This document shows positions 16,487 through 40,889 of a DNA stretch of 42,993 nt, piece by piece (position 1 is the stretch's first letter; the number at the start of each line of letters is the position of its first letter). This stretch comes from Candidatus Pacearchaeota archaeon. Its GTDB lineage: Archaea > Nanobdellota > Nanobdellia > Pacearchaeales > GW2011-AR1. Made by a program: the position numbers and the translations under genes. The stretch spans positions 1 through 42,993 of the forward strand of contig JACPGZ010000046.1 of the NCBI GenBank assembly GCA_016188895.1, in the 5' to 3' direction. The notes under the pieces were generated by a model. The model saw only the letters and a program-made list of their open reading frames with translations, was not told the origin of the DNA and ran no database searches.

Positions 16487-17410
16487 ATGGTGTATCACGA
16501 AGTACGGGAAGTTAATGGGAAGAAACAAAATTATTTAGTTTTCATCAAAAGAGACGGTGATAAAATAGTAAAGAAAAGCAAATTTATTGGTTCTGGGAGT
16601 ATTTCAAAAGAACACATAGAAAAATTAAAGAAGGAATTCGAAATAGATATTCTTAGCAGTATGCCTTCTAAAAATCTTTCAAAAGAACAACTTGCAGAGG
16701 TTGAAAGGCTAAAAAATATTTATCATAAAAAAATAAGTTCTTTAAGTAAAGAAGAGTTTGAAAAATTTGAAAACACTTTTTTTACAGAGCTTACATATGA
16801 TAGTAATGCTATAGAGGGTAGTTCTCTTTCACTTGAAGATACAAATTTAGTTATCAATGAAGGTTTAGTCCCAAAAGGAAAAACTTTAAGAGAAATTAAT
16901 GAAGCAAGAAATCATATAGAAGCAATAAGATTTATTAATAGTTATGAAGGTGACTTAAATGAGCAGTTTATTCTCAAACTTCACTCCATTATTCTTAAGA
17001 ATATCTCTGAACGATTTGCTGGCAGATATCGAGAAACTACGGTGAGAATTTTTCAAGGTGATGTTCATTTTCCAGATGCCTCAAGAGTTCCCCAATTGGT
17101 TGGGAATCTTGTCTATTGGTACAAATTAAATAAAAACAAGATGCATCCTTTTGAATTAGCTATTACTTTTTCAGTTAAACTTGTTTCAATTCATCCTTTT
17201 GTAGATGGCAATGGAAGGATTTCAAGGCTTATTATGAACTTTCTATTGAAAAAGAAAGGTTATCCTTGGATCAATATTTATATGAAACAAAGAGCAGAAT
17301 ATTTACATGCGGTAAGGCTGGCAAATGATGAAAAATACAAGCAGATTTTAGAATTTTGTATTCTTGTTCTCGAAGAAAATCTCAAAAGTTTTAATGTTCT
17401 TGGTTCTTGA
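16487..17410 (+). CDS. fic: Fic family protein (AMPylase-type)
   Basis: 307 aa; canonical HPFVDGNGRISRL motif and an upstream inhibitory-helix-like SNAIEG motif. Confidence 0.9.
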   Translation: MVYHEVREVNGKKQNYLVFIKRDGDKIVKKSKFIGSGSISKEHIEKLKKEFEIDILSSMPSKNLSKEQLAEVERLKNIYHKKISSLSKEEFEKFENTFFTELTYDSNAIEGSSLSLEDTNLVINEGLVPKGKTLREINEARNHIEAIRFINSYEGDLNEQFILKLHSIILKNISERFAGRYRETTVRIFQGDVHFPDASRVPQLVGNLVYWYKLNKNKMHPFELAITFSVKLVSIHPFVDGNGRISRLIMNFLLKKKGYPWINIYMKQRAEYLHAVRLANDEKYKQILEFCILVLEENLKSFNVLGS

Positions 17411-17976: not shown

Positions 17977-18183
17977 ATGAATGAAAATGAAAGTTGTCTC
18001 ATCTGTAAAAAAGAAATAGCGATATACAATGGTGAAGTCTGCAAAAATTGTCTTCAGTTTTTCCAATGGAAATACAAAAAGAAATGGAAAAAAGAAATGA
18101 AAAGAGTTATTGATGGCATTGAAGAAGCAATAGCTTACCTTGATAGTTTAGATAACCTAAACAATGAAAGGAGGAAAAAATGA
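17977..18183 (+). CDS. Small zinc-ribbon protein
   Basis: 68 aa; CLICKK...CKNC; 4-nt overlap with the next gene. Confidence 0.55.
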   Translation: MNENESCLICKKEIAIYNGEVCKNCLQFFQWKYKKKWKKEMKRVIDGIEEAIAYLDSLDNLNNERRKK

Positions 18184-18509
18184 GGGTGCAATTAGTTGCT
18201 CTAGTGCTTGCATTTGTGTTGGCTGTTGCTCCTGTTTTGGCGGCTGTTGATTTTAACAAGCCGATAAGTGCTGAAGACCAATCAACATTTGATAAGATAC
18301 TTGAGCCTGTGATGAAAATCTACAACCTTGTCAAATACATTGCCACTGCAATTGCAGCTGTAATTTTGCTTGTTGCAGGTATTAATTACATGTTTAGCGG
18401 TTCTGACCCCAGAAAGCGAGAAAATGCAAAGAATATGGCGATGTATGTCATAATTGGCTTGATTATTATCTGGGCAACTCCGTTTGTAGTTAAATTCCTT
18501 GTTGGTTAA
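18180..18509 (+). CDS. VirB2/TrbC-like (CedA1/TedC-like) pilin candidate
   Basis: 109 aa; signal peptide ending VLAAVD, then two hydrophobic helices separated by the charged loop SGSDPRKRENAKN, the VirB2 topology. Confidence 0.55.
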   Translation: MRVQLVALVLAFVLAVAPVLAAVDFNKPISAEDQSTFDKILEPVMKIYNLVKYIATAIAAVILLVAGINYMFSGSDPRKRENAKNMAMYVIIGLIIIWATPFVVKFLVG

Positions 18510-18909
18510 AATGCGAAAGAAAACATGGCTAAGGATTTGGGCAGTTGTAACTCTCATAAGAATAGTGCTTGCTCTTCCATTTGCAGCAGGCGAGCATGAG
18601 CTAGAATTAAATTGCGATAATGTTCTAAAAGAAAAGCTTGATGACTGCAAATATATTCTAAATAGTGATTTTAATGAAGAAGAAAAACAGGATTTAATTG
18701 ATATTTTAAACAGCCAATCATATAGTTATGAATATAATTGGGAAGCTGTAGAAGAAATACCCCAATCTGAAACAAAAACACAGGAAATAGATAATGATAC
18801 TATTCTTTTTGCTTGGGATGTTGCTGTTCTTATTTTTTTTAACTATTTTGTCTATTCAGTATTAACTAAATCCTCTTTCTTTGAAAAATGGCTGAATGTG
18901 GTCTCTTAA
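18499..18909 (+). CDS. Secreted/membrane protein of the T4SS-like operon
   Basis: 136 aa; N-terminal signal/TM, acidic middle, C-terminal TM; overlaps both neighbours. Confidence 0.5.
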   Translation: MLVKMRKKTWLRIWAVVTLIRIVLALPFAAGEHELELNCDNVLKEKLDDCKYILNSDFNEEEKQDLIDILNSQSYSYEYNWEAVEEIPQSETKTQEIDNDTILFAWDVAVLIFFNYFVYSVLTKSSFFEKWLNVVS

Positions 18910-19706
18910 ATCTAGCAACATGCCTTCCAGAAAAGTTCTTTCAATATCTTGTAAATATAATTAATGCTCCAATAAAACCTCTCTTATCTTTAGTTAAAGG
19001 ACTTCTTTCAGAGCCAATTAGCCTTTCTTTATTTGTAAATCTATGGGCGATTATTATCTATCTTATTTCCATGTTTTATGGATTGTTCTTATTGTATTCT
19101 GGCTTTAATTTTATGATTTCAGGTCATGATGTTCAGAAAAGAGAGCAGGCAAAAACATGGCTTAGAAATATTGTCATAATGATTATTCTTGTCCAAGCCT
19201 CTTTTCTACTTTATGAGATTGCTATTGAGCTTTCTTCTATATTGACAACAGCGGTCTTAAGTCTTTTAGATAAGAATTTTTTCCTATTAACATTTGATAA
19301 TATTATCAATATCGGCTTACAGCTTATTTTTTTCTTTGTTTATCTTCTTGCGTTGCTTCTCACTGCAATTATTCTTATCATCAGATATGTTATTGTTGCT
19401 GTTGGAGTTGTTTTCTTTCCAATAGGAATTTTCTTTTATTTCATTCCGCCTTTAAGGCAATATGGCTCTTTAATCTTAAATTTTTTAGGAATAGCTATCT
19501 TTATTACATTCTTTGATGCAATTATTCTTATTGGCTTCTCAAAATTGCTTGGAATTCAGCTTTTTAGCAGTATGAAAATTCTTGTTATGATTTCTGCTTT
19601 TCTTTTCATAGATGCATTAATGTTCTTTCTTATGTTTTTCTCGCTCATTAAAGCAGGTTTTAATCTTGCTACTAAAATAGGAGGAGTTGTCTCAAAGTTC
19701 ACATGA
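18888..19706 (+). CDS. VirB6/TrbL-like (CedA-like) polytopic membrane protein
   Basis: 272 aa with about 6 TM helices, immediately upstream of the VirB4-like ATPase with a 4-nt overlap. Confidence 0.5.
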   Translation: MAECGLLNLATCLPEKFFQYLVNIINAPIKPLLSLVKGLLSEPISLSLFVNLWAIIIYLISMFYGLFLLYSGFNFMISGHDVQKREQAKTWLRNIVIMIILVQASFLLYEIAIELSSILTTAVLSLLDKNFFLLTFDNIINIGLQLIFFFVYLLALLLTAIILIIRYVIVAVGVVFFPIGIFFYFIPPLRQYGSLILNFLGIAIFITFFDAIILIGFSKLLGIQLFSSMKILVMISAFLFIDALMFFLMFFSLIKAGFNLATKIGGVVSKFT

Positions 19707-22672
19707 GCTATGAAATCCCGCAACAGCTTGAATACAAGGAAAAAATCATCTTTGGCTTAACATTCAAGCAGTTAGCTTATTTATTTCTCTTTGCTCCTCA
19801 AGTGTTAATTATATTTTTTAAAACACCACTTCCTCTTTATTCAAAAATTGCTATTTCACTTCTTCCTTCATCTCTTGCAATAGGATTTATGTTTCTCAAT
19901 CTTGATTATCACATTGTAAGCTGGATGATTTGGCTGAAATTCAGAAAAACAAAAAATCCAAAGAAAATCGTTCAATTTATAGGTGTAAAGGAAATTAAGA
20001 ATAATTTGATTATTATGAATGATAAAAGAAAACTCGCTGTTCTTAAAGTTCAGCCTATTAATTTTTCAATTAAACCTCAAGGCTCTCAAGAATCTATTAC
20101 CTCTTTATTTCAAAAGCTCCTGAATGCAATTGACTTTCCTGTTCAGATTATTATGAATACAGAAACTCTTGATTTAGGAGATTATTTAGAAGCAATACAG
20201 AAAAAAATAGAATTGCAAGGTAATAAACTCTTTATTCATTTATTTAAGAAGTATAAGGAACACTTAGAATCTCTTATTTCCCAAAACAAAGTGATGAACA
20301 GGAACTTTTATATTATTATTCCGGAGAAAAGTGCAATAGATATTCAGATTAGCATTTGTGAGAGAAAATTAGATGCCCTTGACCTAAAAAGCTCTCGTTT
20401 GGATAATGAACAATTAAGAAAACTGATTGATAAATTCTTTGGCTTTCCAATGAACATTGAAAATAATCCTGCTTATATTAAAATTAATGAAACTTTTAAT
20501 AGAATTATTTTTGCTCATGGCTACCCAAGAAGCGTAGAAGTTGGATTTCTTGATAAAATAGTAAGCACATTAGGGAATTTTGATTTGTCGCTCCATATTG
20601 AGCCTTATCATATTGAAACCATGATGATTACTCTAAATAAGGAACTGCAAAAGCAAAGAGCAGATTTATATTCGGCACAAAAAAGAGAAATTATTAACCC
20701 AAGCTTAGAGATTAAATATGCAGATACGAAGAATGTTTTAGAAAATCTTCAGAAAGGCAAGGAAAAACTATTTAATGTAAGCCTTTATATTAATTGTAGG
20801 GCACAAAATCTTGAGGAGCTTAATCTCTTAACTAAGAGAATTGAGGCAGAGCTTAATTCTTTAATGATTATTCCTAAAATCCCCCAATTTCGCATGGCTC
20901 AAGGATTTCTTTCTTGCGCCCCTATTGCGAAAAACAGCCTTGCTATGAGGCGAAACATTACTACAGAGGCTTTATCAGCCTTCTTTCCTTTTACTTCTTC
21001 CTTTTTGCAGGCTGATGCAACAGGAGTATGGCTTGGATTAAACAAGAATAATATTCCCATTATCAAGGATATTTTCAAATTAAGCAATCCAAATGGATTA
21101 TGTCTTGCAAGTTCTGGCTCTGGAAAGAGCTACATGGCAAAATTGCTCATTTCTCGTTATCTACTTAATGGAGTTAAGGTTATGGTGATTGACCCCCAAG
21201 GAGAGTATAGAAATCTCGTAGAGCGATTTAATGGCCAAAGGATAGACTTAAGCAGAACTTCTGAAACCATGATTAATCCTTTAGATTTAATGGGACATGA
21301 ATATTCTGAAAAAAGGTTGGCACTAATGGATTTAATGCCCATTATGTTAGGAGAACTCACAGAACCTCAAAAAGCATTTCTTGACAAAGCATTGACAAAA
21401 GCTTATGAGAAGTATTGTATTAATGAAGCTCAAGAAACATGGAACAATCAGCCTCCAATTCTTGAAGATATTGTGCAAGTGTTAGAAGACATGGAAAAAA
21501 GAGCTATAACTCTTGAAAAAACAACAATTCATAGCCTCGTCAATAGATTAAGCATGTATACTGATGGGGTTTTTTCTTTCTTGAATAAGCATACTAAAAT
21601 AGATTTCAATAATAATTTTGTGTGCTTTGATATAGGAAGCATGCCTAAACAAGTAAAGCCCGTAGTTATGTTTCTTGTTCTTGATTATGTCTATATGAAG
21701 ATGAGAGAAGACATCCAGAGAAAACTCCTTGTCATAGATGAGGCATGGTCTCTTTTAGGAAGAACAGAAGATGCTTCTTATATTTTTGAAATAGTTAAGA
21801 CATGCAGAAAATTCAACCTCGCACTCTTCCTTATTAATCAAGAAGTAGAGGGTATGCTTTCATCAGAAGCAGGAAAATCCGTGCTTGCAAATACTTCCTA
21901 CACCTTACTTATGAGACAAAAACCAGCTGTCATGAAGAACGTGCAAGATACATTTTATTTGAGCAATGCAGAAAGAATTTCTCTTTTAACAGCAGAAGTG
22001 GGTGAGGGCATTTTATTGATGGATGATGAGCATTCTGAAATAAAGATTATTGCATCAGAAGAAGAGCATAAATTGATAACGACAAAGCCTGATGAAATTT
22101 TAGAGCAAAATTCCAAAAAACAAAAGCAAGAGAAACCGAAAAAGGTTTCGGAGCTTAAACCTTTAGGTGCGGAGAAACCTTTAGTTAAGATTAGCGTTGA
22201 TGAAAATAAAGGGTTTTACAAGCATAAAGATTTGAAACTTCCTGACATAAAGTATTTGATTAAGAAGAACTATAAACAAAGTCGCAATATCAATATTTCT
22301 GGCAGGAGCGAATTATATTTGCTTAAGCCGAGAAGAGGAGAATCTCTTGAACATTTTTTCTTAATTAAAGATATTGAGGCTTATCTGCAAAAACACGCAG
22401 ATAAAGTTGAGCTTTTTGAAACAACAAAGCCAGATATTATTTTTGAGATTAATGGAAAAAGATATGCAGTTGAAGTTGAAACAGGAAAAATCTTAACAAA
22501 AGATAAAAACAAACTGCAAAATAAGATTGAGAATTTGAAAAAAGAATATGATAATAATTGGTTTTTTGTTGTAACGAATTACAGATTTGCTTCTTCATAT
22601 AATCAATTAGGCAAGACATTCACAAGAAAAAACTTTTTGAAACAATTTCCAAAATGGCTCAAAAACACTTAA
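19703..22672 (+). CDS. VirB3(PrgI)-VirB4/TraC-like conjugation ATPase fused to a C-terminal PD-(D/E)xK nuclease-like domain
   Basis: 989 aa. N-terminal 2-TM PrgI-like segment (IIFGLTFKQLAYL). Walker A ASSGSGKSY (nt 21116-21130) and Walker B LLVIDEAWSL (nt ~21725-21748). C-terminal ~140 aa carries E...PDIIFE...AVEVETGK (nt ~22430-22489). Confidence 0.8.
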   Translation: MSYEIPQQLEYKEKIIFGLTFKQLAYLFLFAPQVLIIFFKTPLPLYSKIAISLLPSSLAIGFMFLNLDYHIVSWMIWLKFRKTKNPKKIVQFIGVKEIKNNLIIMNDKRKLAVLKVQPINFSIKPQGSQESITSLFQKLLNAIDFPVQIIMNTETLDLGDYLEAIQKKIELQGNKLFIHLFKKYKEHLESLISQNKVMNRNFYIIIPEKSAIDIQISICERKLDALDLKSSRLDNEQLRKLIDKFFGFPMNIENNPAYIKINETFNRIIFAHGYPRSVEVGFLDKIVSTLGNFDLSLHIEPYHIETMMITLNKELQKQRADLYSAQKREIINPSLEIKYADTKNVLENLQKGKEKLFNVSLYINCRAQNLEELNLLTKRIEAELNSLMIIPKIPQFRMAQGFLSCAPIAKNSLAMRRNITTEALSAFFPFTSSFLQADATGVWLGLNKNNIPIIKDIFKLSNPNGLCLASSGSGKSYMAKLLISRYLLNGVKVMVIDPQGEYRNLVERFNGQRIDLSRTSETMINPLDLMGHEYSEKRLALMDLMPIMLGELTEPQKAFLDKALTKAYEKYCINEAQETWNNQPPILEDIVQVLEDMEKRAITLEKTTIHSLVNRLSMYTDGVFSFLNKHTKIDFNNNFVCFDIGSMPKQVKPVVMFLVLDYVYMKMREDIQRKLLVIDEAWSLLGRTEDASYIFEIVKTCRKFNLALFLINQEVEGMLSSEAGKSVLANTSYTLLMRQKPAVMKNVQDTFYLSNAERISLLTAEVGEGILLMDDEHSEIKIIASEEEHKLITTKPDEILEQNSKKQKQEKPKKVSELKPLGAEKPLVKISVDENKGFYKHKDLKLPDIKYLIKKNYKQSRNINISGRSELYLLKPRRGESLEHFFLIKDIEAYLQKHADKVELFETTKPDIIFEINGKRYAVEVETGKILTKDKNKLQNKIENLKKEYDNNWFFVVTNYRFASSYNQLGKTFTRKNFLKQFPKWLKNT

Positions 22673-27047: not shown

Positions 27048-27097
27048 CTACTAAAGCATCATAGTTTAAATTTCCTTGCGGTTGTTTCTCCATATTT

Positions 27098-27264
27098 TAA
27101 GCAAAGAAGATTTACTAATTGATGTTACTAAAACAGATATAGAAAAACGCCTTATCAAGACAGAGAAAGAAAATACTCTTCTCAAAGAGAAGATGTTGGA
27201 CATGGAGCAACAAATGAAGAAGATTTTAGAGTTGGTTGATAAAGCAATTGGGAAGATTAGTTAA
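27098..27264 (+). pseudogene. Remnant of a second tyrosine-integrase gene (C-terminal tail only)
   Basis: Encodes SKEDLLIDVTKTDIEKRLIKTEKENTLLKEKMLDMEQQMKKILELV, homologous to the last ~55 aa of the integrase at 39723..40889 (SEEDLLIDVTKTEIEKRLLKTEKDKEILQEKIESMEKQMGKILELL). Roughly three-quarters nt identity by eye, opposite strand. Confidence 0.7.
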
Positions 27265-39423: not shown

Positions 39424-39717
39424 ATGGAATTAGAATTAAAAGGAATAAATGATAAAAAACCTCTCCTGCCTAGGAAATGTGTTGATATAAATGGCAAGAT
39501 ATTGTATAGCGAAGGCGACCAAGCATGGAATCTAATCAGGCTTAAGAAGGATGTCTTAAATGAGTTTTATCAATTAAAAGAGAAACGCTTGAAATTTTCA
39601 TATCAGATGATTTATTATAGGGTTTACGAAGACTTGGAGAAGGCAATTAAAGGATTGAAGAAGCAAAATAAGGCATTGCCTGTTTTATTATGGCTTTATC
39701 AAGAGCCTTCTATTTAG
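39424..39717 (+). CDS. Hypothetical small protein
   Basis: 97-aa ORF adjacent to the integrase. Confidence 0.45.
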   Translation: MELELKGINDKKPLLPRKCVDINGKILYSEGDQAWNLIRLKKDVLNEFYQLKEKRLKFSYQMIYYRVYEDLEKAIKGLKKQNKALPVLLWLYQEPSI

Positions 39718-39722
39718 ATGTA

Positions 39723-40889
39723 TTAATTTTCTACTTCAATAATCTGGACTTTACTTCCTAAGACTTTTAATAATTCTAAAATTTTCCCCATTTGCTTTTC
39801 CATACTCTCAATTTTCTCCTGCAAAATTTCCTTGTCTTTTTCTGTTTTTAGAAGTCTTTTTTCAATTTCTGTTTTTGTAACGTCAATTAACAAATCTTCT
39901 TCGCTTATAGTGTCTTTCATTCCAAGAAGCTCACTATAATAATGAATCTTATCGCTTTTCTTCCATCCAAATCTGTATTTTAATGCTGACTCAGATTTAT
40001 ATCGTGGAAGCCAATAACAACATGAGATATGTCTGAAATCATACAAACTTATCTCACAATATTTCGCTCCTGCTTCACTTACTCCATTACCGAATACTTT
40101 TAATGCCAGCCTTTTAAGATATTGATTAGCAATCAGCGGATTTATTTTAAATAAATAATCCTCTTTTTTCAGTTCTTTGTTTTTAATATAATCTTTCAAT
40201 AAATCTGAACATAACATTAATTTAATTCTTCTTCCAAAAGTTTTGCTCATTTCTTCTCTTATTTGAAGCTCTTTAAAATCTTTATACAGGTCAGAAACTT
40301 TAATATTAACTAATTCGGTTGGAGCTCTTATCCCCGTGTCTAGTAAAAACATGATTAAAACTTTGTACTCGTATTTTGCATTATCACACAATTTTTTTAC
40401 CTGCTCTTCATTTAAATAAACCCAATCTGGTTTTTCTGGACTTGTATCTAAATCAATAGTTATATCTGGAATTTCATCTCCGTTTTTTTTGTTGACTTTT
40501 TGATGCCAGTGCCAAAAAGCCTTGAAGATCTTAGCATAGGTATCCACTGATTTGTAATTTCCACCATCTATTTTCTTTATATCCCCTCTTTTCATATCTG
40601 AAAAGAAGCTAATTAATTGCTCTTCGTTTATTTTAATTATGCTATCAAGATTATACATCTCTTTGAATTTAATTGCAAAGAAAATAAGCCTGTTTCTTAA
40701 TGAGTTTAACCTTGCATAACTTCTTGAGCCCTTGATACTCACAGGAGATATATTTATTCCTTTTTCCATTTCTTTAAGGTACTTAAGAATAATGTCAGAG
40801 TTTTCTTTACTTAAACGAAGGATTCTAAGCTTATTATTTTCCTTCCATTTAATCCATCTTTCTTTGTTTTTATGCGGGTCTATTTTCAT
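39723..40889 (-). CDS. Tyrosine recombinase/integrase
   Basis: 388 aa; LLDTGIRAPTEL (box I Arg), YDFRHISCCYW (His/Arg box II), KIHYY (candidate catalytic Tyr); C-terminal coiled-coil tail. The start lies 79 nt from the tRNA-Glu 3' end. Confidence 0.8.
   Translation of the reverse strand: MKIDPHKNKERWIKWKENNKLRILRLSKENSDIILKYLKEMEKGINISPVSIKGSRSYARLNSLRNRLIFFAIKFKEMYNLDSIIKINEEQLISFFSDMKRGDIKKIDGGNYKSVDTYAKIFKAFWHWHQKVNKKNGDEIPDITIDLDTSPEKPDWVYLNEEQVKKLCDNAKYEYKVLIMFLLDTGIRAPTELVNIKVSDLYKDFKELQIREEMSKTFGRRIKLMLCSDLLKDYIKNKELKKEDYLFKINPLIANQYLKRLALKVFGNGVSEAGAKYCEISLYDFRHISCCYWLPRYKSESALKYRFGWKKSDKIHYYSELLGMKDTISEEDLLIDVTKTEIEKRLLKTEKDKEILQEKIESMEKQMGKILELLKVLGSKVQIIEVEN

What the first reader, a model, noticed from the sequence alone, without database searches (positions are those of the whole stretch)
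22220..22672. PD-(D/E)xK nuclease-like domain fused to the C-terminus of the VirB4-like ATPase
A K/E-rich linker (KKQKQEKPKKVSELKP) follows the ATPase core. After it, the last ~140 aa read ...SLEHFFLIKDIEAYLQKHADKVELFETTKPDIIFEINGKRYAVEVETGK...NWFFVVTN. This is an E...PD...E-x-E-x-x-K pattern, as in Hjc/restriction-endonuclease folds. A nuclease tethered to the translocation ATPase could replace the missing relaxase (processing the DNA to be moved) or degrade one strand during import. I do not recall this fusion being characterised.
Basis: inference. Interest (0 to 1): 0.6.

Follow-up and report, generated by a model that had tools for sequence, protein, structure and literature searches.

The report
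Nuclease domain fused to archaeal VirB4
The motor ATPase of a small DNA-transfer machine, carried on a mobile element of tiny DPANN archaea, always ends in a flexibly tethered nuclease-fold domain, which makes that domain a testable candidate for the DNA-cutting enzyme that archaeal conjugation systems seem to lack.

Summary
ORF 19703-22672 (989 aa) reads VirB3/PrgI-like membrane hairpin, VirB4 ATPase, a 20-74 aa K-rich disordered linker, then a 150-aa C-terminal domain.

- **Not an artefact:** the domain lies in the same roughly 1000-aa frame in 79 of 80 related genome loci. Every long protein (458 aa or more) that carries it is a VirB4.
- **Fold:** AlphaFold2 models it confidently (pLDDT 93.7). 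The leading rows of all three structure searches are PD-(D/E)xK nucleases (Can2/VC1899 Z 9.0, VRR-NUC 7.9, Hjc 7.5-7.8), though Z values this size are middling.
- **Sequence family:** no Pfam model reaches threshold. CoiA_nuc, the competence nickase family, is the commonest sub-threshold hit.
- **Motif:** H884, D911, E924 and E926 are invariant in 60 sequences and E880 is in 59.
- **Context:** the gene sits in a four-to-five-gene operon (pilin, VirB6-like protein, VirB4). The operon lies on an integrase-bearing, patchily distributed element that usually carries a small orphan DNA methyltransferase.
- **Missing parts:** I found no coupling protein or relaxase in this genome.

My best reading (about 45%) is a motor-tethered nicking or cutting enzyme that prepares element DNA for transfer. 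I found no prior description, and the scan has not seen this on other DNA.

The parts
19703..22672 (+). Whole ORF, 989 aa: VirB3-like hairpin, VirB4 N-terminal domain, P-loop ATPase, linker, nuclease-fold domain
   Evidence: Translation. Pfam P-loop_TraG 1.6e-27, DUF87, AAA_10, PrgI. NCBIfam CD1110-type VirB4 4.8e-91, below that model's cut-off.
19703..19939 (+). VirB3/PrgI-like N-terminal region (residues 1-79) with two predicted membrane helices (21-39, 45-64)
   Evidence: Pfam PrgI at residues 5-65, E 2.4e-5, just under the cut-off. Helices seen in the full-length model. This part is a separate ORF in about 12 related loci.
21047..22081 (+). VirB4 P-loop ATPase core (residues about 449-793), with the Walker A motif GSGKS at 472-476
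   Evidence: Pfam and NCBIfam matches. G472, G474, K475 and S476 are invariant in the 29-sequence alignment A1. Codons checked.
22085..22213 (+). K-rich, poorly conserved flexible linker (residues 795-837)
   Evidence: pLDDT is below 50 over 795-802 and 804-823, and 807-837 has no secondary structure. Among 29 homologues the linker is 20-74 aa long, 29% identical and 23% Lys.
22214..22327 (+). Small beta-alpha-beta-beta sub-domain (residues 838-875) in front of the nuclease core; L852 is invariant
   Evidence: Model elements E19-21, H27-35, E39-44 and E50-55 of the 170-aa domain model. Conservation. Alignments to Can2 and VC1899 start here, at model residue 15-19.
22328..22669 (+). PD-(D/E)xK-fold nuclease core (residues 876-989): alpha1, beta1, beta2, beta3, alpha2, beta4 and C-terminal helices
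   Evidence: AlphaFold2 pLDDT 93.7, pTM 0.86. Foldseek and VIA-align top hits are PD-(D/E)xK nucleases. Sub-threshold Pfam hits to CoiA_nuc, AHJR-like and BamHI.
22340..22480 (+). Span holding the putative active-site codons: E880 (22340-22342), H884 (22352-22354), D911 (22433-22435), E924 (22472-22474), E926 (22478-22480). K941 (22523-22525) and Y966 (22598-22600) lie just downstream.
   Evidence: Column counts in alignment A2. Codons checked. In the model, D911 opens beta2 and E924-x-E926 lies in beta3.
18180..18509 (+). VirB2/TrbC-type pilin gene of the same operon
   Evidence: Pfam T4SS_pilin 5.6e-16 and TrbC 1.9e-10. Homologue present in 61 of 80 related loci.
18499..18909 (+). 136-aa operon protein, the short form of a 120-470 aa protein found between the pilin and VirB6-like genes in relatives
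   Evidence: Overlaps both neighbours. Cluster 2 is present in 52 loci, and 8 of its members match window 18535-18903.
18888..19706 (+). 272-aa polytopic membrane protein, the VirB6-like candidate, overlapping the VirB4 start by 4 nt
   Evidence: Homologue present in 71 of 80 loci, always directly upstream of VirB4. Weak T4SS_pilin match. The VirB6-like label is inferred from position and size only.
39723..40889 (-). Tyrosine recombinase (integrase) of the family that recurs next to this VirB4 module in other genomes
   Evidence: Pfam Phage_integrase. 62% identical to cluster-5 integrases, which occur in 25 of 80 related loci.
39424..39717 (+). 97-aa protein that accompanies the integrase and regulator end of related elements
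   Evidence: All 15 cluster-6 members match here, best 53% identity.

Best explanation
The last 150 residues of this VirB3-VirB4 ATPase form a metal-dependent nuclease of the PD-(D/E)xK superfamily. It belongs to a previously unnamed family whose active site reads E880/H884 ... D911 ... E924-x-E926, with Glu where the usual Lys sits. It hangs from the cytoplasmic end of the ATPase on a 20-74 aa disordered lysine-rich tether.

The ATPase is the motor of a minimal type-IV-secretion-like operon (pilin, small membrane protein, VirB6-like protein, VirB4). That operon is carried by an integrase-bearing mobile element of Nanoarchaeota (Woesearchaeota/Pacearchaeota-type DPANN archaea).

Proposed mechanism:
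1. The element excises from the chromosome.
2. The tethered nuclease nicks or cuts the element's DNA at the mouth of the channel, by hydrolysis and without a covalent protein-DNA link. This would resemble what is reported for the PD-(D/E)xK relaxases of the MOBC family and for the competence nickase CoiA.
3. A free strand end is thereby handed directly to the motor, so no separate relaxase or coupling protein is needed.

Shown here: the fusion, the fold, the conservation, the tether and the mobile-element context. Inferred: nuclease activity, the substrate, and action on the donor side.
For: **Fusion is universal**
- The domain is found in 79 of 80 related loci, and the 77 complete copies sit in one uninterrupted frame.
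- Every full-length VirB4 of this clade in a 201-genome class sample carries it.
- All 98 proteins of 458 aa or more that contain the domain are VirB4.

**Fold**
- The domain model has pLDDT 93.7.
- All top 11 VIA-align rows are PD-(D/E)xK nucleases: VC1899 Z 9.0 (rmsd 2.9, 109 aligned), Can2 8.7, Can1 8.6, BstEII 8.0, VRR-NUC 7.8, Bax1 7.6, Hjc 7.5.
- Foldseek gives probability 0.99 to Cdn1, followed by NucS, Bax1 and Hjc.

**Sequence**
- CoiA_nuc is hit by 23 of 60 members at E of 1 or less (best 5.8e-5), AHJR-like by 9 and BamHI by 2.
- A stand-alone paralogue scores 19.6 bits against the CoiA_nuc cut-off of 20.3.

**Active site**
- H884, D911, E924 and E926 are invariant and E880 is E in 59 of 60, against a background of 35% column identity.
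- D911 opens beta2 and E924-x-E926 lies in beta3, the canonical positions.

**Tether**
- pLDDT is below 50 over 795-823, and the linker varies in length.

**Mobile-element context**
- The conserved gene order is integrase, divergent small DNA methyltransferase, pilin, VirB6-like, VirB4-nuclease, variable cargo (often R-M systems), then a regulator and a small 92-aa protein.
- The window contains the same integrase (62% identity) and the same 92-aa protein.
- The distribution is patchy, 19 of 201 and 63 of 301 genomes, with one to three VirB4 fusions per genome plus shorter copies.

**No alternative processing proteins**
- No VirD4/TraG, no TrwB match over the cut-off, and no Relaxase or Replic_Relax match in the genome.

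**Precedents from the literature**
- CoiA nicks supercoiled DNA and cuts at ssDNA-dsDNA junctions despite an atypical PD-(D/E)xK site (PMC13663708).
Against: - No enzymology exists, and the canonical Lys is absent.
- Structural Z scores of 7.5-9.0 are only middling by the search tool's own calibration.
- No Pfam family reaches its cut-off on the window's own domain.
- Mobility of the element is inferred from gene content and patchy distribution. No flanking direct repeats were found.
- No conserved oriT-like motif emerged from a crude k-mer comparison.
- A hydrolytic nick leaves open how the transferred DNA would be re-circularised.
- The same domain also occurs without VirB4, as soluble or membrane-anchored proteins on related elements that have no T4SS genes nearby. 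Its activity is therefore not tied exclusively to transfer.
- VirB4 itself is not known to pump DNA in bacteria.
Confidence: 0.45

Rival explanations
1. Import-side processing. The module works like the crenarchaeal Ced/Ted DNA-import systems or like bacterial competence. The tethered nuclease cuts incoming DNA or degrades one strand as it emerges from the channel, in the way EndA and NucA act in competent bacteria. The purpose could be recombination, or nucleotide scavenging by a metabolically reduced DPANN cell.
For: - The gene set matches Ced/Ted in kind: pilin, polytopic membrane protein and VirB4-like ATPase, with no coupling protein (PMC9905601).
- The nearest Pfam family is a competence protein, CoiA.
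- The domain is tethered to the cytoplasmic face of the membrane in the VirB4 fusions, and apparently also in the paralogues with N-terminal membrane helices followed by Lys/Arg-rich segments. That topology is my reading of the sequences.
Against: - The module is borne on an integrase-carrying element, is present in only about 10-20% of sampled genomes, and is sometimes multi-copy. This fits selfish transfer better than a core uptake or feeding function.
- The Ced/Ted paper read here mentions no nuclease domain on the VirB4-like ATPase.
- The NCBIfam CedD model scores 46.7 bits against a cut-off of 600.
Confidence: 0.2
2. Restriction or exclusion. The domain is a restriction-type endonuclease stationed at the DNA portal. 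It destroys unmodified or competing incoming DNA, and the conserved neighbouring methyltransferase protects the element's own DNA.
For: - A small orphan N6_N4 methyltransferase lies within 6 kb upstream in 34 of 52 loci that have enough flank, and an MT-A70 methylase is listed in six loci, mostly at that slot.
- One stand-alone paralogue lies about 1 kb from a C5 methylase gene, with one 366-aa ORF between them.
- The fold and the ExE site resemble type II restriction enzymes.
- Cargo is rich in R-M systems.
Against: - The window's own module has no such methyltransferase; fic occupies that slot.
- Two unrelated methylase families occupy the slot while the nuclease stays conserved, which is not expected for a matched R-M pair.
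- Orphan methylases on conjugative elements are usually read as anti-restriction (my own knowledge).
- No PADLOC defence model matches the domain or its paralogues at a meaningful level.
- A restriction enzyme has no evident need to be welded to VirB4 in every member.
Confidence: 0.12
3. Non-catalytic module. The nuclease fold has been kept as a DNA-binding or oligomerisation domain that only recruits DNA, or a partner protein, to the motor.
For: - The canonical Lys of the (D/E)xK motif is missing.
- Many PD-(D/E)xK domains are known to be inactive (my own knowledge).
- No family-level sequence match reaches threshold.
Against: - Acidic residues are invariant at exactly the metal-binding positions, with an invariant His and Tyr besides, across sequences only 30-59% identical. 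That is the pattern of a working active site.
- As I recall, BamHI is active with the same E...D...ExE arrangement.
- CoiA is active with an atypical site.
Confidence: 0.1

Closest known systems
CoiA (Pfam PF06054 CoiA_nuc), competence nuclease of Bacillota
   Same: Small PD-(D/E)xK domain with an atypical catalytic signature that works in DNA transfer between cells. It is the commonest sub-threshold Pfam match (23 of 60 members, best E 5.8e-5). One stand-alone paralogue (P0185) has an N-terminal Cys-rich segment, as CoiA has a zinc finger, and scores 19.6 against the 20.3 cut-off. CoiA nicks supercoiled DNA (PMC13663708).
   Different: CoiA is a soluble bacterial protein that acts after uptake, in D-loop resolution. 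Here the domain is archaeal, welded to VirB4, and has no Zn finger in the fusion. No member reaches the Pfam cut-off, and the family model finds nothing in this genome.
MOBC relaxases (TraX of pAD1, MobC of CloDF13; Pfam Replic_Relax)
   Same: A PD-(D/E)xK-type enzyme that serves as the DNA-processing nuclease of a conjugation system, with no covalent intermediate observed (PMC12857230). This is the closest functional precedent for the proposed role.
   Different: No sequence match, only a low-scoring, often-chance Atlas neighbour carrying Replic_Relax on 10% of its members. MOBC relaxases are separate proteins that work with a coupling protein. They are not domains of VirB4.
Ced and Ted DNA-import systems of Crenarchaeota (CedA/A1/A2/CedB; TedC)
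   Same: An archaeal, minimal, relaxase-less T4SS-like set made of a VirB2-like pilin, a polytopic membrane protein and a VirB4-like ATPase (PMC9905601).
   Different: The Ced/Ted paper read here mentions no nuclease domain on the ATPase. Its authors invoke HerA-NurA to make ssDNA. Ced is a chromosomal, UV-induced import system, whereas this module rides an integrase-bearing element and belongs to the CD1110-like VirB4 branch by NCBIfam best hit.
Can2/Card1/VC1899, VRR-NUC, Hjc and Bax1 nuclease domains
   Same: Best structural matches, Z 9.0-7.5 over 85-130 residues. They share the alpha-beta-beta-beta-alpha-beta core with acidic residues on beta2 and beta3.
   Different: Sequence identity is 10-19%, and as I recall these families keep the (D/E)xK lysine. 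They occur in other contexts (CARF sensors, junction resolution, repair). None is fused to a T4SS ATPase.
BamHI-type catalytic site
   Same: An E...D...ExE arrangement in which Glu replaces the canonical Lys (recalled from the BamHI literature). Two of 60 members give weak Pfam BamHI hits at E 0.01.
   Different: There is no significant sequence or specific structural match to BamHI. This is a resemblance of the motif only.
SPEARE giant proteins of Nanohaloarchaeota
   Same: DPANN proteins that combine a VirB4/TraG-like ATPase with a claimed restriction-endonuclease part.
   Different: In SPEARE the endonuclease claim was re-examined and rejected (PMC10266531). Here the nuclease fold is modelled with high confidence and its catalytic residues are invariant. 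The two architectures are unrelated in size and domain order.

Membership tests
PD-(D/E)xK phosphodiesterase superfamily | alpha-beta-beta-beta-alpha-beta core fold | tested here: met
   The AlphaFold2 model (pLDDT 93.7) has H63-77, E82-85, E93-97, E100-107, H116-130 and E134-138. All leading fold-search hits are members of this superfamily.
PD-(D/E)xK phosphodiesterase superfamily | Conserved Asp at the start of beta2 and an acidic residue in beta3 | tested here: met
   D911 and E924 are invariant in 60 of 60 sequences and lie at those positions.
PD-(D/E)xK phosphodiesterase superfamily | Lys two residues after the beta3 acidic residue, the 'xK' of the motif | tested here: not met
   That position holds E926, invariant in 60 of 60. 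The nearby K929 is K in only 24 of 60. K941 on the next helix is K or R in all 60.
PD-(D/E)xK phosphodiesterase superfamily | Metal-dependent phosphodiester cleavage | not testable with these tools
   Needs enzymology.
CoiA_nuc (PF06054) | Score at or above the Pfam gathering cut-off of 20.3 bits | tested here: not met
   The window's domain has no CoiA_nuc hit in the tables returned (E limit 0.1, 1). 23 of 60 relatives match at E of 1 or less. The best paralogue scores 19.6 bits. The family model finds nothing in this genome.
MOBC relaxase (Replic_Relax, PF13814) | Sequence match to the family model | tested here: not met
   No match in the genome at E of 0.01 or less. The family is not among the 25 most often matched by the 60 domain sequences.
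MOBC relaxase (Replic_Relax, PF13814) | Site-specific nicking at an oriT | not testable with these tools
   No oriT is known. A crude k-mer search of upstream regions gave no clear candidate.
VirB4 / TraC-type T4SS ATPase | P-loop TraG/VirB4 ATPase domain with a Walker A motif | tested here: met
   PF19044 1.6e-27 and DUF87 9.1e-16. G472, G474, K475 and S476 of GSGKS (472-476) are invariant. NCBIfam VirB4 models match strongly but below their equivalog cut-offs.
VirB4 / TraC-type T4SS ATPase | Encoded next to T4SS pilin and membrane components | tested here: met
   The T4SS_pilin/TrbC gene is at 18180-18509 and a polytopic 272-aa gene lies directly upstream. Both are conserved, in 61 and 71 of 80 loci.
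Ced system (CedB / NCBIfam CedD) | Sequence membership of the Ced ATPase family | tested here: not met
   NF053655 CedD scores 46.7 bits against a cut-off of 600.
Integrative conjugative element | Integrase together with a T4SS on one element with a patchy distribution | tested here: met
   The same integrase family is present in 25 of 80 loci and in the window at 39723-40889. The domain is found in 19 of 201 and 63 of 301 genomes.
Integrative conjugative element | Defined ends (att repeats), excision and transfer | tested here: inconclusive
   No exact direct repeat of 14 nt or more links 12.0-18.3 kb with 24.5-43.0 kb. Excision and transfer need experiments or read-level data.

The most novel reading that the evidence does not exclude
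The VirB4-tethered domain is the functional relaxase of an archaeal conjugative element. It would be a hydrolytic, non-covalent nickase built into the secretion motor itself, so that a four-to-five-gene operon with no coupling protein and no separate relaxase is enough to mobilise DNA between DPANN cells, or between them and their hosts. That would be a third solution to conjugative DNA processing, beside the covalent relaxases (HUH-type and others) and stand-alone MOBC enzymes. It would also be the first identified DNA-processing enzyme of archaeal conjugation.
Probability: 0.3. Interest if true: 0.85.

Novelty: new variant of a known kind. Interest (0 to 1): 0.66.

Why it matters
Archaeal conjugation and Ced/Ted-type DNA exchange have no identified relaxase. 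A 2025 review of type IV secretion still lists this as open (PMC12857230). Here a nuclease-fold domain with an intact-looking active site is physically joined to the one universal T4SS ATPase in every member of a widespread DPANN lineage of these systems. That gives a concrete protein to express, mutate and assay.

It also defines three further things:
- a new PD-(D/E)xK family that no Pfam model captures;
- a previously unnoted class of integrase-bearing, methylase-carrying, T4SS-encoding elements in Nanoarchaeota;
- a link between this family and the competence nuclease CoiA.

If the domain proves active, it shows how far a DNA-transfer apparatus can be reduced. It also suggests a route for gene flow in episymbiotic archaea with genomes under 1 Mb.

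Tried and rejected
- **Sequence searches of solved structures.** Both the single domain and the 60-sequence profile gave only chance-level hits.
- **Other family libraries.** NCBIfam, PADLOC and tblastn against the plasmid and phage collections gave nothing for the domain.
- **ESM Atlas.** The nearest clusters are unnamed Nanobdellota hypothetical proteins. The only named neighbours (Replic_Relax on 10% of members, score 0.81; AHJR-like, 0.78) are below the level the tool calls a lead.
- **Homodimer prediction for the domain.** No verdict: score 0.22 against a mark of 0.42. This says nothing about nicking versus double-strand cutting.
- **Profile comparison with CoiA.** I could not obtain CoiA sequences. 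The family search reported only that three control genomes match and returned no loci.
- **Genomic context of database hits.** I studied the stand-alone and membrane-anchored paralogues only in six genome stretches taken from the genome search.
- **att-like repeats.** None found around the putative element.
- **oriT-like motif.** A shared 10-mer screen upstream of the pilin genes gave only a GGAG-containing word in 12 of 56 loci, probably part of a ribosome-binding or coding region.
- **PF26593.** I first thought this precomputed Pfam label might name the C-terminal domain. It is absent from N-terminally truncated hits that still contain the domain, so it maps to the N-terminal part of VirB4.
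- **Assembly frameshift.** Rejected.
- **Iyer et al. 2004.** This FtsK-HerA paper is not held in the library.


Full report
**What is there**

Window 19703-22672(+) is a single 989-aa ORF. Pfam and NCBIfam identify the following parts:
- a PrgI/VirB3-like N-terminus at residues 5-65;
- a TraC-type N-terminal domain;
- a VirB4/TraG P-loop ATPase at residues about 449-793 (PF19044 1.6e-27).

The best NCBIfam model is the CD1110-type VirB4, at 4.8e-91 but below its equivalog cut-off.

The gene is the last of a translationally overlapping operon:
- a 68-aa ORF (17977-18183);
- a VirB2/TrbC pilin (18180-18509, T4SS_pilin 5.6e-16);
- a 136-aa protein (18499-18909);
- a 272-aa membrane protein (18888-19706);
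- VirB4.

**Is the fusion real?**

A word-indexed search with residues 830-989 found 33 proteins of similar length, all VirB4-like and 32-84% identical over the domain.

A scan of one genome per species found 222 related places. The best 80 were fetched, nearly all labelled Woesearchaeota, Pacearchaeota or Nanoarchaeota. The C-terminal 170 aa is found in 79 of them. The exception, L071, ends at residue 876. In 77 loci the domain is complete and lies in an uninterrupted frame, mostly 870-1064 aa.

In an even sample of 201 genomes of the same class, the domain occurs in 19 genomes and a VirB4 of this clade in the same genomes. Every full-length copy holds both parts in one frame. Among proteins of 458 aa or more, all 98 that contain the domain carry the VirB4 P-loop domain.

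The VirB3-like part is a separate ORF in about a dozen loci, whereas the nuclease part is never separated from an intact VirB4. An assembly frameshift is therefore excluded.

**What fold is it?**

A 60-sequence alignment of the domain alone (A2) gave an AlphaFold2 model with pLDDT 93.7 and pTM 0.86. The model has two parts:
- a small beta-alpha-beta-beta sub-domain at residues 838-875;
- an alpha-beta-beta-beta-alpha-beta core with extra C-terminal helices at residues 876-989.

The structure searches agree on a PD-(D/E)xK nuclease fold.
- Foldseek against the PDB gave no hit below E 1e-3. Its list is nonetheless led by PD-(D/E)xK nucleases: Cdn1 (probability 0.99), NucS/EndoMS, Bax1, Hjc, DdmD, the R2 endonuclease, Can2, PspGI and RecU.
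- An independent all-against-all structural search put eleven PD-(D/E)xK nucleases on top: VC1899 (Z 9.0, rmsd 2.9, 109 aligned), Can2 (8.7), Can1 (8.6), BstEII (8.0), Cdn1 (7.9), VRR-NUC (7.8), Bax1 (7.6), Hjc (7.5) and I-Bth0305I (7.4).
- A second look at the Foldseek candidates gave the same families among its leading rows.

By the tool's own calibration these Z values are middling. The weight comes from how consistent the list is, and from the sequence evidence that follows.

When each of the 60 sequences was scanned against Pfam, the most frequent match was CoiA_nuc (23 members at E of 1 or less, best 5.8e-5). Next came the unrelated DUF4318 (17 members), then AHJR-like (9), a pPIWI-associated REase (3) and BamHI (2). 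A stand-alone paralogue scores 19.6 bits against the CoiA_nuc cut-off of 20.3.

**Is the active site kept?**

Mean column identity in A2 is 35%, yet these positions are fixed:
- H884, D911, E924, E926, G928, Y966 and L852 are identical in all 60 sequences.
- E880 is E in 59 and D in 1.
- K941 is K in 55 and R in 5.
- P910 is P in 53 and A in 7.

In the model, E880 and H884 sit at the start of helix alpha1, one turn apart. D911 opens beta2. E924-x-E926 lies in beta3. These are the textbook positions of the PD-(D/E)xK metal-binding residues, except that the usual Lys is an invariant Glu.

As I recall it, this E...D...ExE arrangement is the one BamHI uses. CoiA is likewise described as having an atypical site, yet it nicks plasmid DNA and cuts at ssDNA-dsDNA junctions (PMC13663708). 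So the missing Lys does not argue strongly for an inactive domain.

**How is it attached?**

In the full-length model the two N-terminal helices (21-39, 45-64) form the VirB3-like hairpin. Residues 795-802 and 804-823 have pLDDT below 50, and 807-837 has no secondary structure. The C-terminal domain refolds as it does in isolation, with pLDDT 82-88.

Across 29 homologues the linker is 20-74 residues long, 29% identical and 23% lysine. The nuclease core is 55% identical and the ATPase 74%. The domain is therefore a conserved unit on a loose, basic tether at the cytoplasmic end of the motor.

**Context**

I clustered the ORFs of the 80 loci. This shows a recurrent element with the following order:
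1. a tyrosine integrase, in 25 loci;
2. a small DNA methyltransferase facing away from the operon: N6_N4 type within 6 kb upstream in 34 of 52 loci with enough flank, and MT-A70 in six loci, mostly at that slot;
3. the pilin;
4. a 120-470 aa protein;
5. the VirB6-like protein;
6. VirB4-nuclease;
7. variable cargo, often type I R-M genes or a C5 methylase;
8. a double winged-helix regulator and a 92-aa protein.

The window has the same integrase (39723-40889, 62% identical) and the same 92-aa protein (39424-39717). A type III R-M operon lies between them and the T4SS genes. In the window the methylase slot is occupied by fic.

The flanks beyond the module are not conserved. The domain is present in 19 of 201 and 63 of 301 sampled genomes, with one to three VirB4 fusions per genome plus shorter copies. 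The second tally includes one unpublished genome, G374, and no claim here rests on it. I read all this as an integrative element that carries its own transfer module, though I found no att repeats.

The window's genome is 86.6% complete. It has no VirD4/TraG, no TrwB-type match over the cut-off, no Relaxase family match and no Replic_Relax match.

**The domain outside VirB4**

The exhaustive representative search gave 531 hits. Many are VirB4 fragments, but others are different proteins.
- **Bare domains.** About 170-200 aa, some on long contigs.
- **Cys-rich variant.** One has a Cys-rich N-terminus (P0185).
- **Membrane-anchored variants.** A set has one or two N-terminal membrane helices, a Lys/Arg-rich stretch, often a long coiled coil, and then the domain (P0039, P0040, P0041, P0062, P0184). 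They keep the E-x3-H, D and E-x-E-T motifs.

In six genome stretches examined, these paralogues have no T4SS genes nearby. Several do sit near the same integrase family, and individual stretches also carry the 92-aa protein, the double winged-helix regulator or a C5 methylase. So the family belongs to this group of mobile elements generally. It is usually held at the inner face of the membrane, which is my reading of the topology.

**Mechanism**

The best-supported reading is that the domain is an active nuclease serving the transfer function of the element. It would nick or cut the excised element at the channel entrance and hand an end to the motor, standing in for both relaxase and coupling protein.

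Two precedents apply. [quoted passage not shown] The same review states that no relaxase has been found on archaeal conjugative plasmids (PMC12857230).

I put this reading at about 0.45. The rivals are:
- import-side cutting or strand degradation, as in Ced/Ted or bacterial competence (0.2);
- a portal-bound restriction or exclusion nuclease paired with the methylase (0.12);
- a non-catalytic DNA-binding module (0.1).

None of these is excluded by the data. Only the fold, the fusion, the conservation, the tether and the context are shown.

**Prior knowledge**

None of the following mention a nuclease on VirB4:
- papers linking VirB4 with DPANN;
- the Ced/Ted paper;
- the Patescibacteria T4SS paper;
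- the 2014 archaeal dark-matter survey;
- the 2025 T4SS nomenclature review.

The one related claim concerns an endonuclease in the VirB4-containing SPEARE proteins of Nanohaloarchaeota. It involves a different architecture and has been withdrawn on re-analysis (PMC10266531). Public records name the present proteins DUF87, ATP-binding, TraC or VirB4.

I therefore rate this as a new variant of a known kind: a T4SS motor with a built-in nuclease from a new PD-(D/E)xK family. The scan's own index holds no look-alike on other DNA.

Noticed in passing
window 17977-40889, with L001-L080: The T4SS operon, a glycosyltransferase, the type III R-M operon, a wHTH regulator, a 97-aa protein and an integrase look like one integrated element. 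Its core gene order recurs in dozens of Nanoarchaeota genomes: integrase, divergent small methylase, pilin, VirB6-like, VirB4-nuclease, cargo, regulator, 92-aa protein. No att repeats were found.
   Followed up: partly
L003, L011, L012, L014, L035 and about 35 other loci, directly upstream of the pilin gene; window 16487-17410: A small orphan DNA methyltransferase sits divergently next to the T4SS operon in most relatives. It is N6_N4 type (about 215 aa), or MT-A70 (about 200 aa) in six loci. In the window that slot holds a fic gene instead.
   Followed up: partly
P0039, P0040, P0041, P0062; L097:1435-2724(-) = P0184; L102:1288-2043(+) = P0185: Paralogues of the nuclease domain occur without VirB4. 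Some are bare domains, one has a Cys-rich N-terminus, and others have N-terminal membrane helices plus a long coiled coil. They lie near the same integrase family but not near T4SS genes.
   Followed up: partly
L113:6765-7906(+): A reverse transcriptase split into two ORFs lies about 0.4 kb upstream of a membrane-anchored nuclease paralogue, with a RelA/SpoT-domain gene on its other side, on an integrase-bearing stretch.
   Followed up: no
P0044, P0049, P0346, P0353: Some database proteins join VirB4 C-terminal fragments carrying the nuclease domain to integrase pieces (a SAM-like N-terminal domain or the catalytic domain). One carries an intein-splicing domain. These could be rearranged or invaded copies of the gene.
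   Followed up: no
window 27097-27240: A roughly 48-aa remnant (60% identity) of the same integrase family lies between the T4SS side and the R-M operon. 18 integrase queries match it. It probably marks an old recombination junction.
   Followed up: partly
window 18499-18909, with cluster 2: The protein between the pilin and VirB6-like genes comes in two size classes across relatives, about 120-140 aa (as in the window) and about 415-470 aa. Neither has a Pfam match.
   Followed up: no
L028, L029, L075, L024, L030, L065 (record titles): Several contigs that carry this archaeal module are deposited under bacterial or Methanosarcinales MAG names (Bacteroides, Bdellovibrionales, Gammaproteobacteria). 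This is probably mis-binning and not inter-domain transfer.
   Followed up: no
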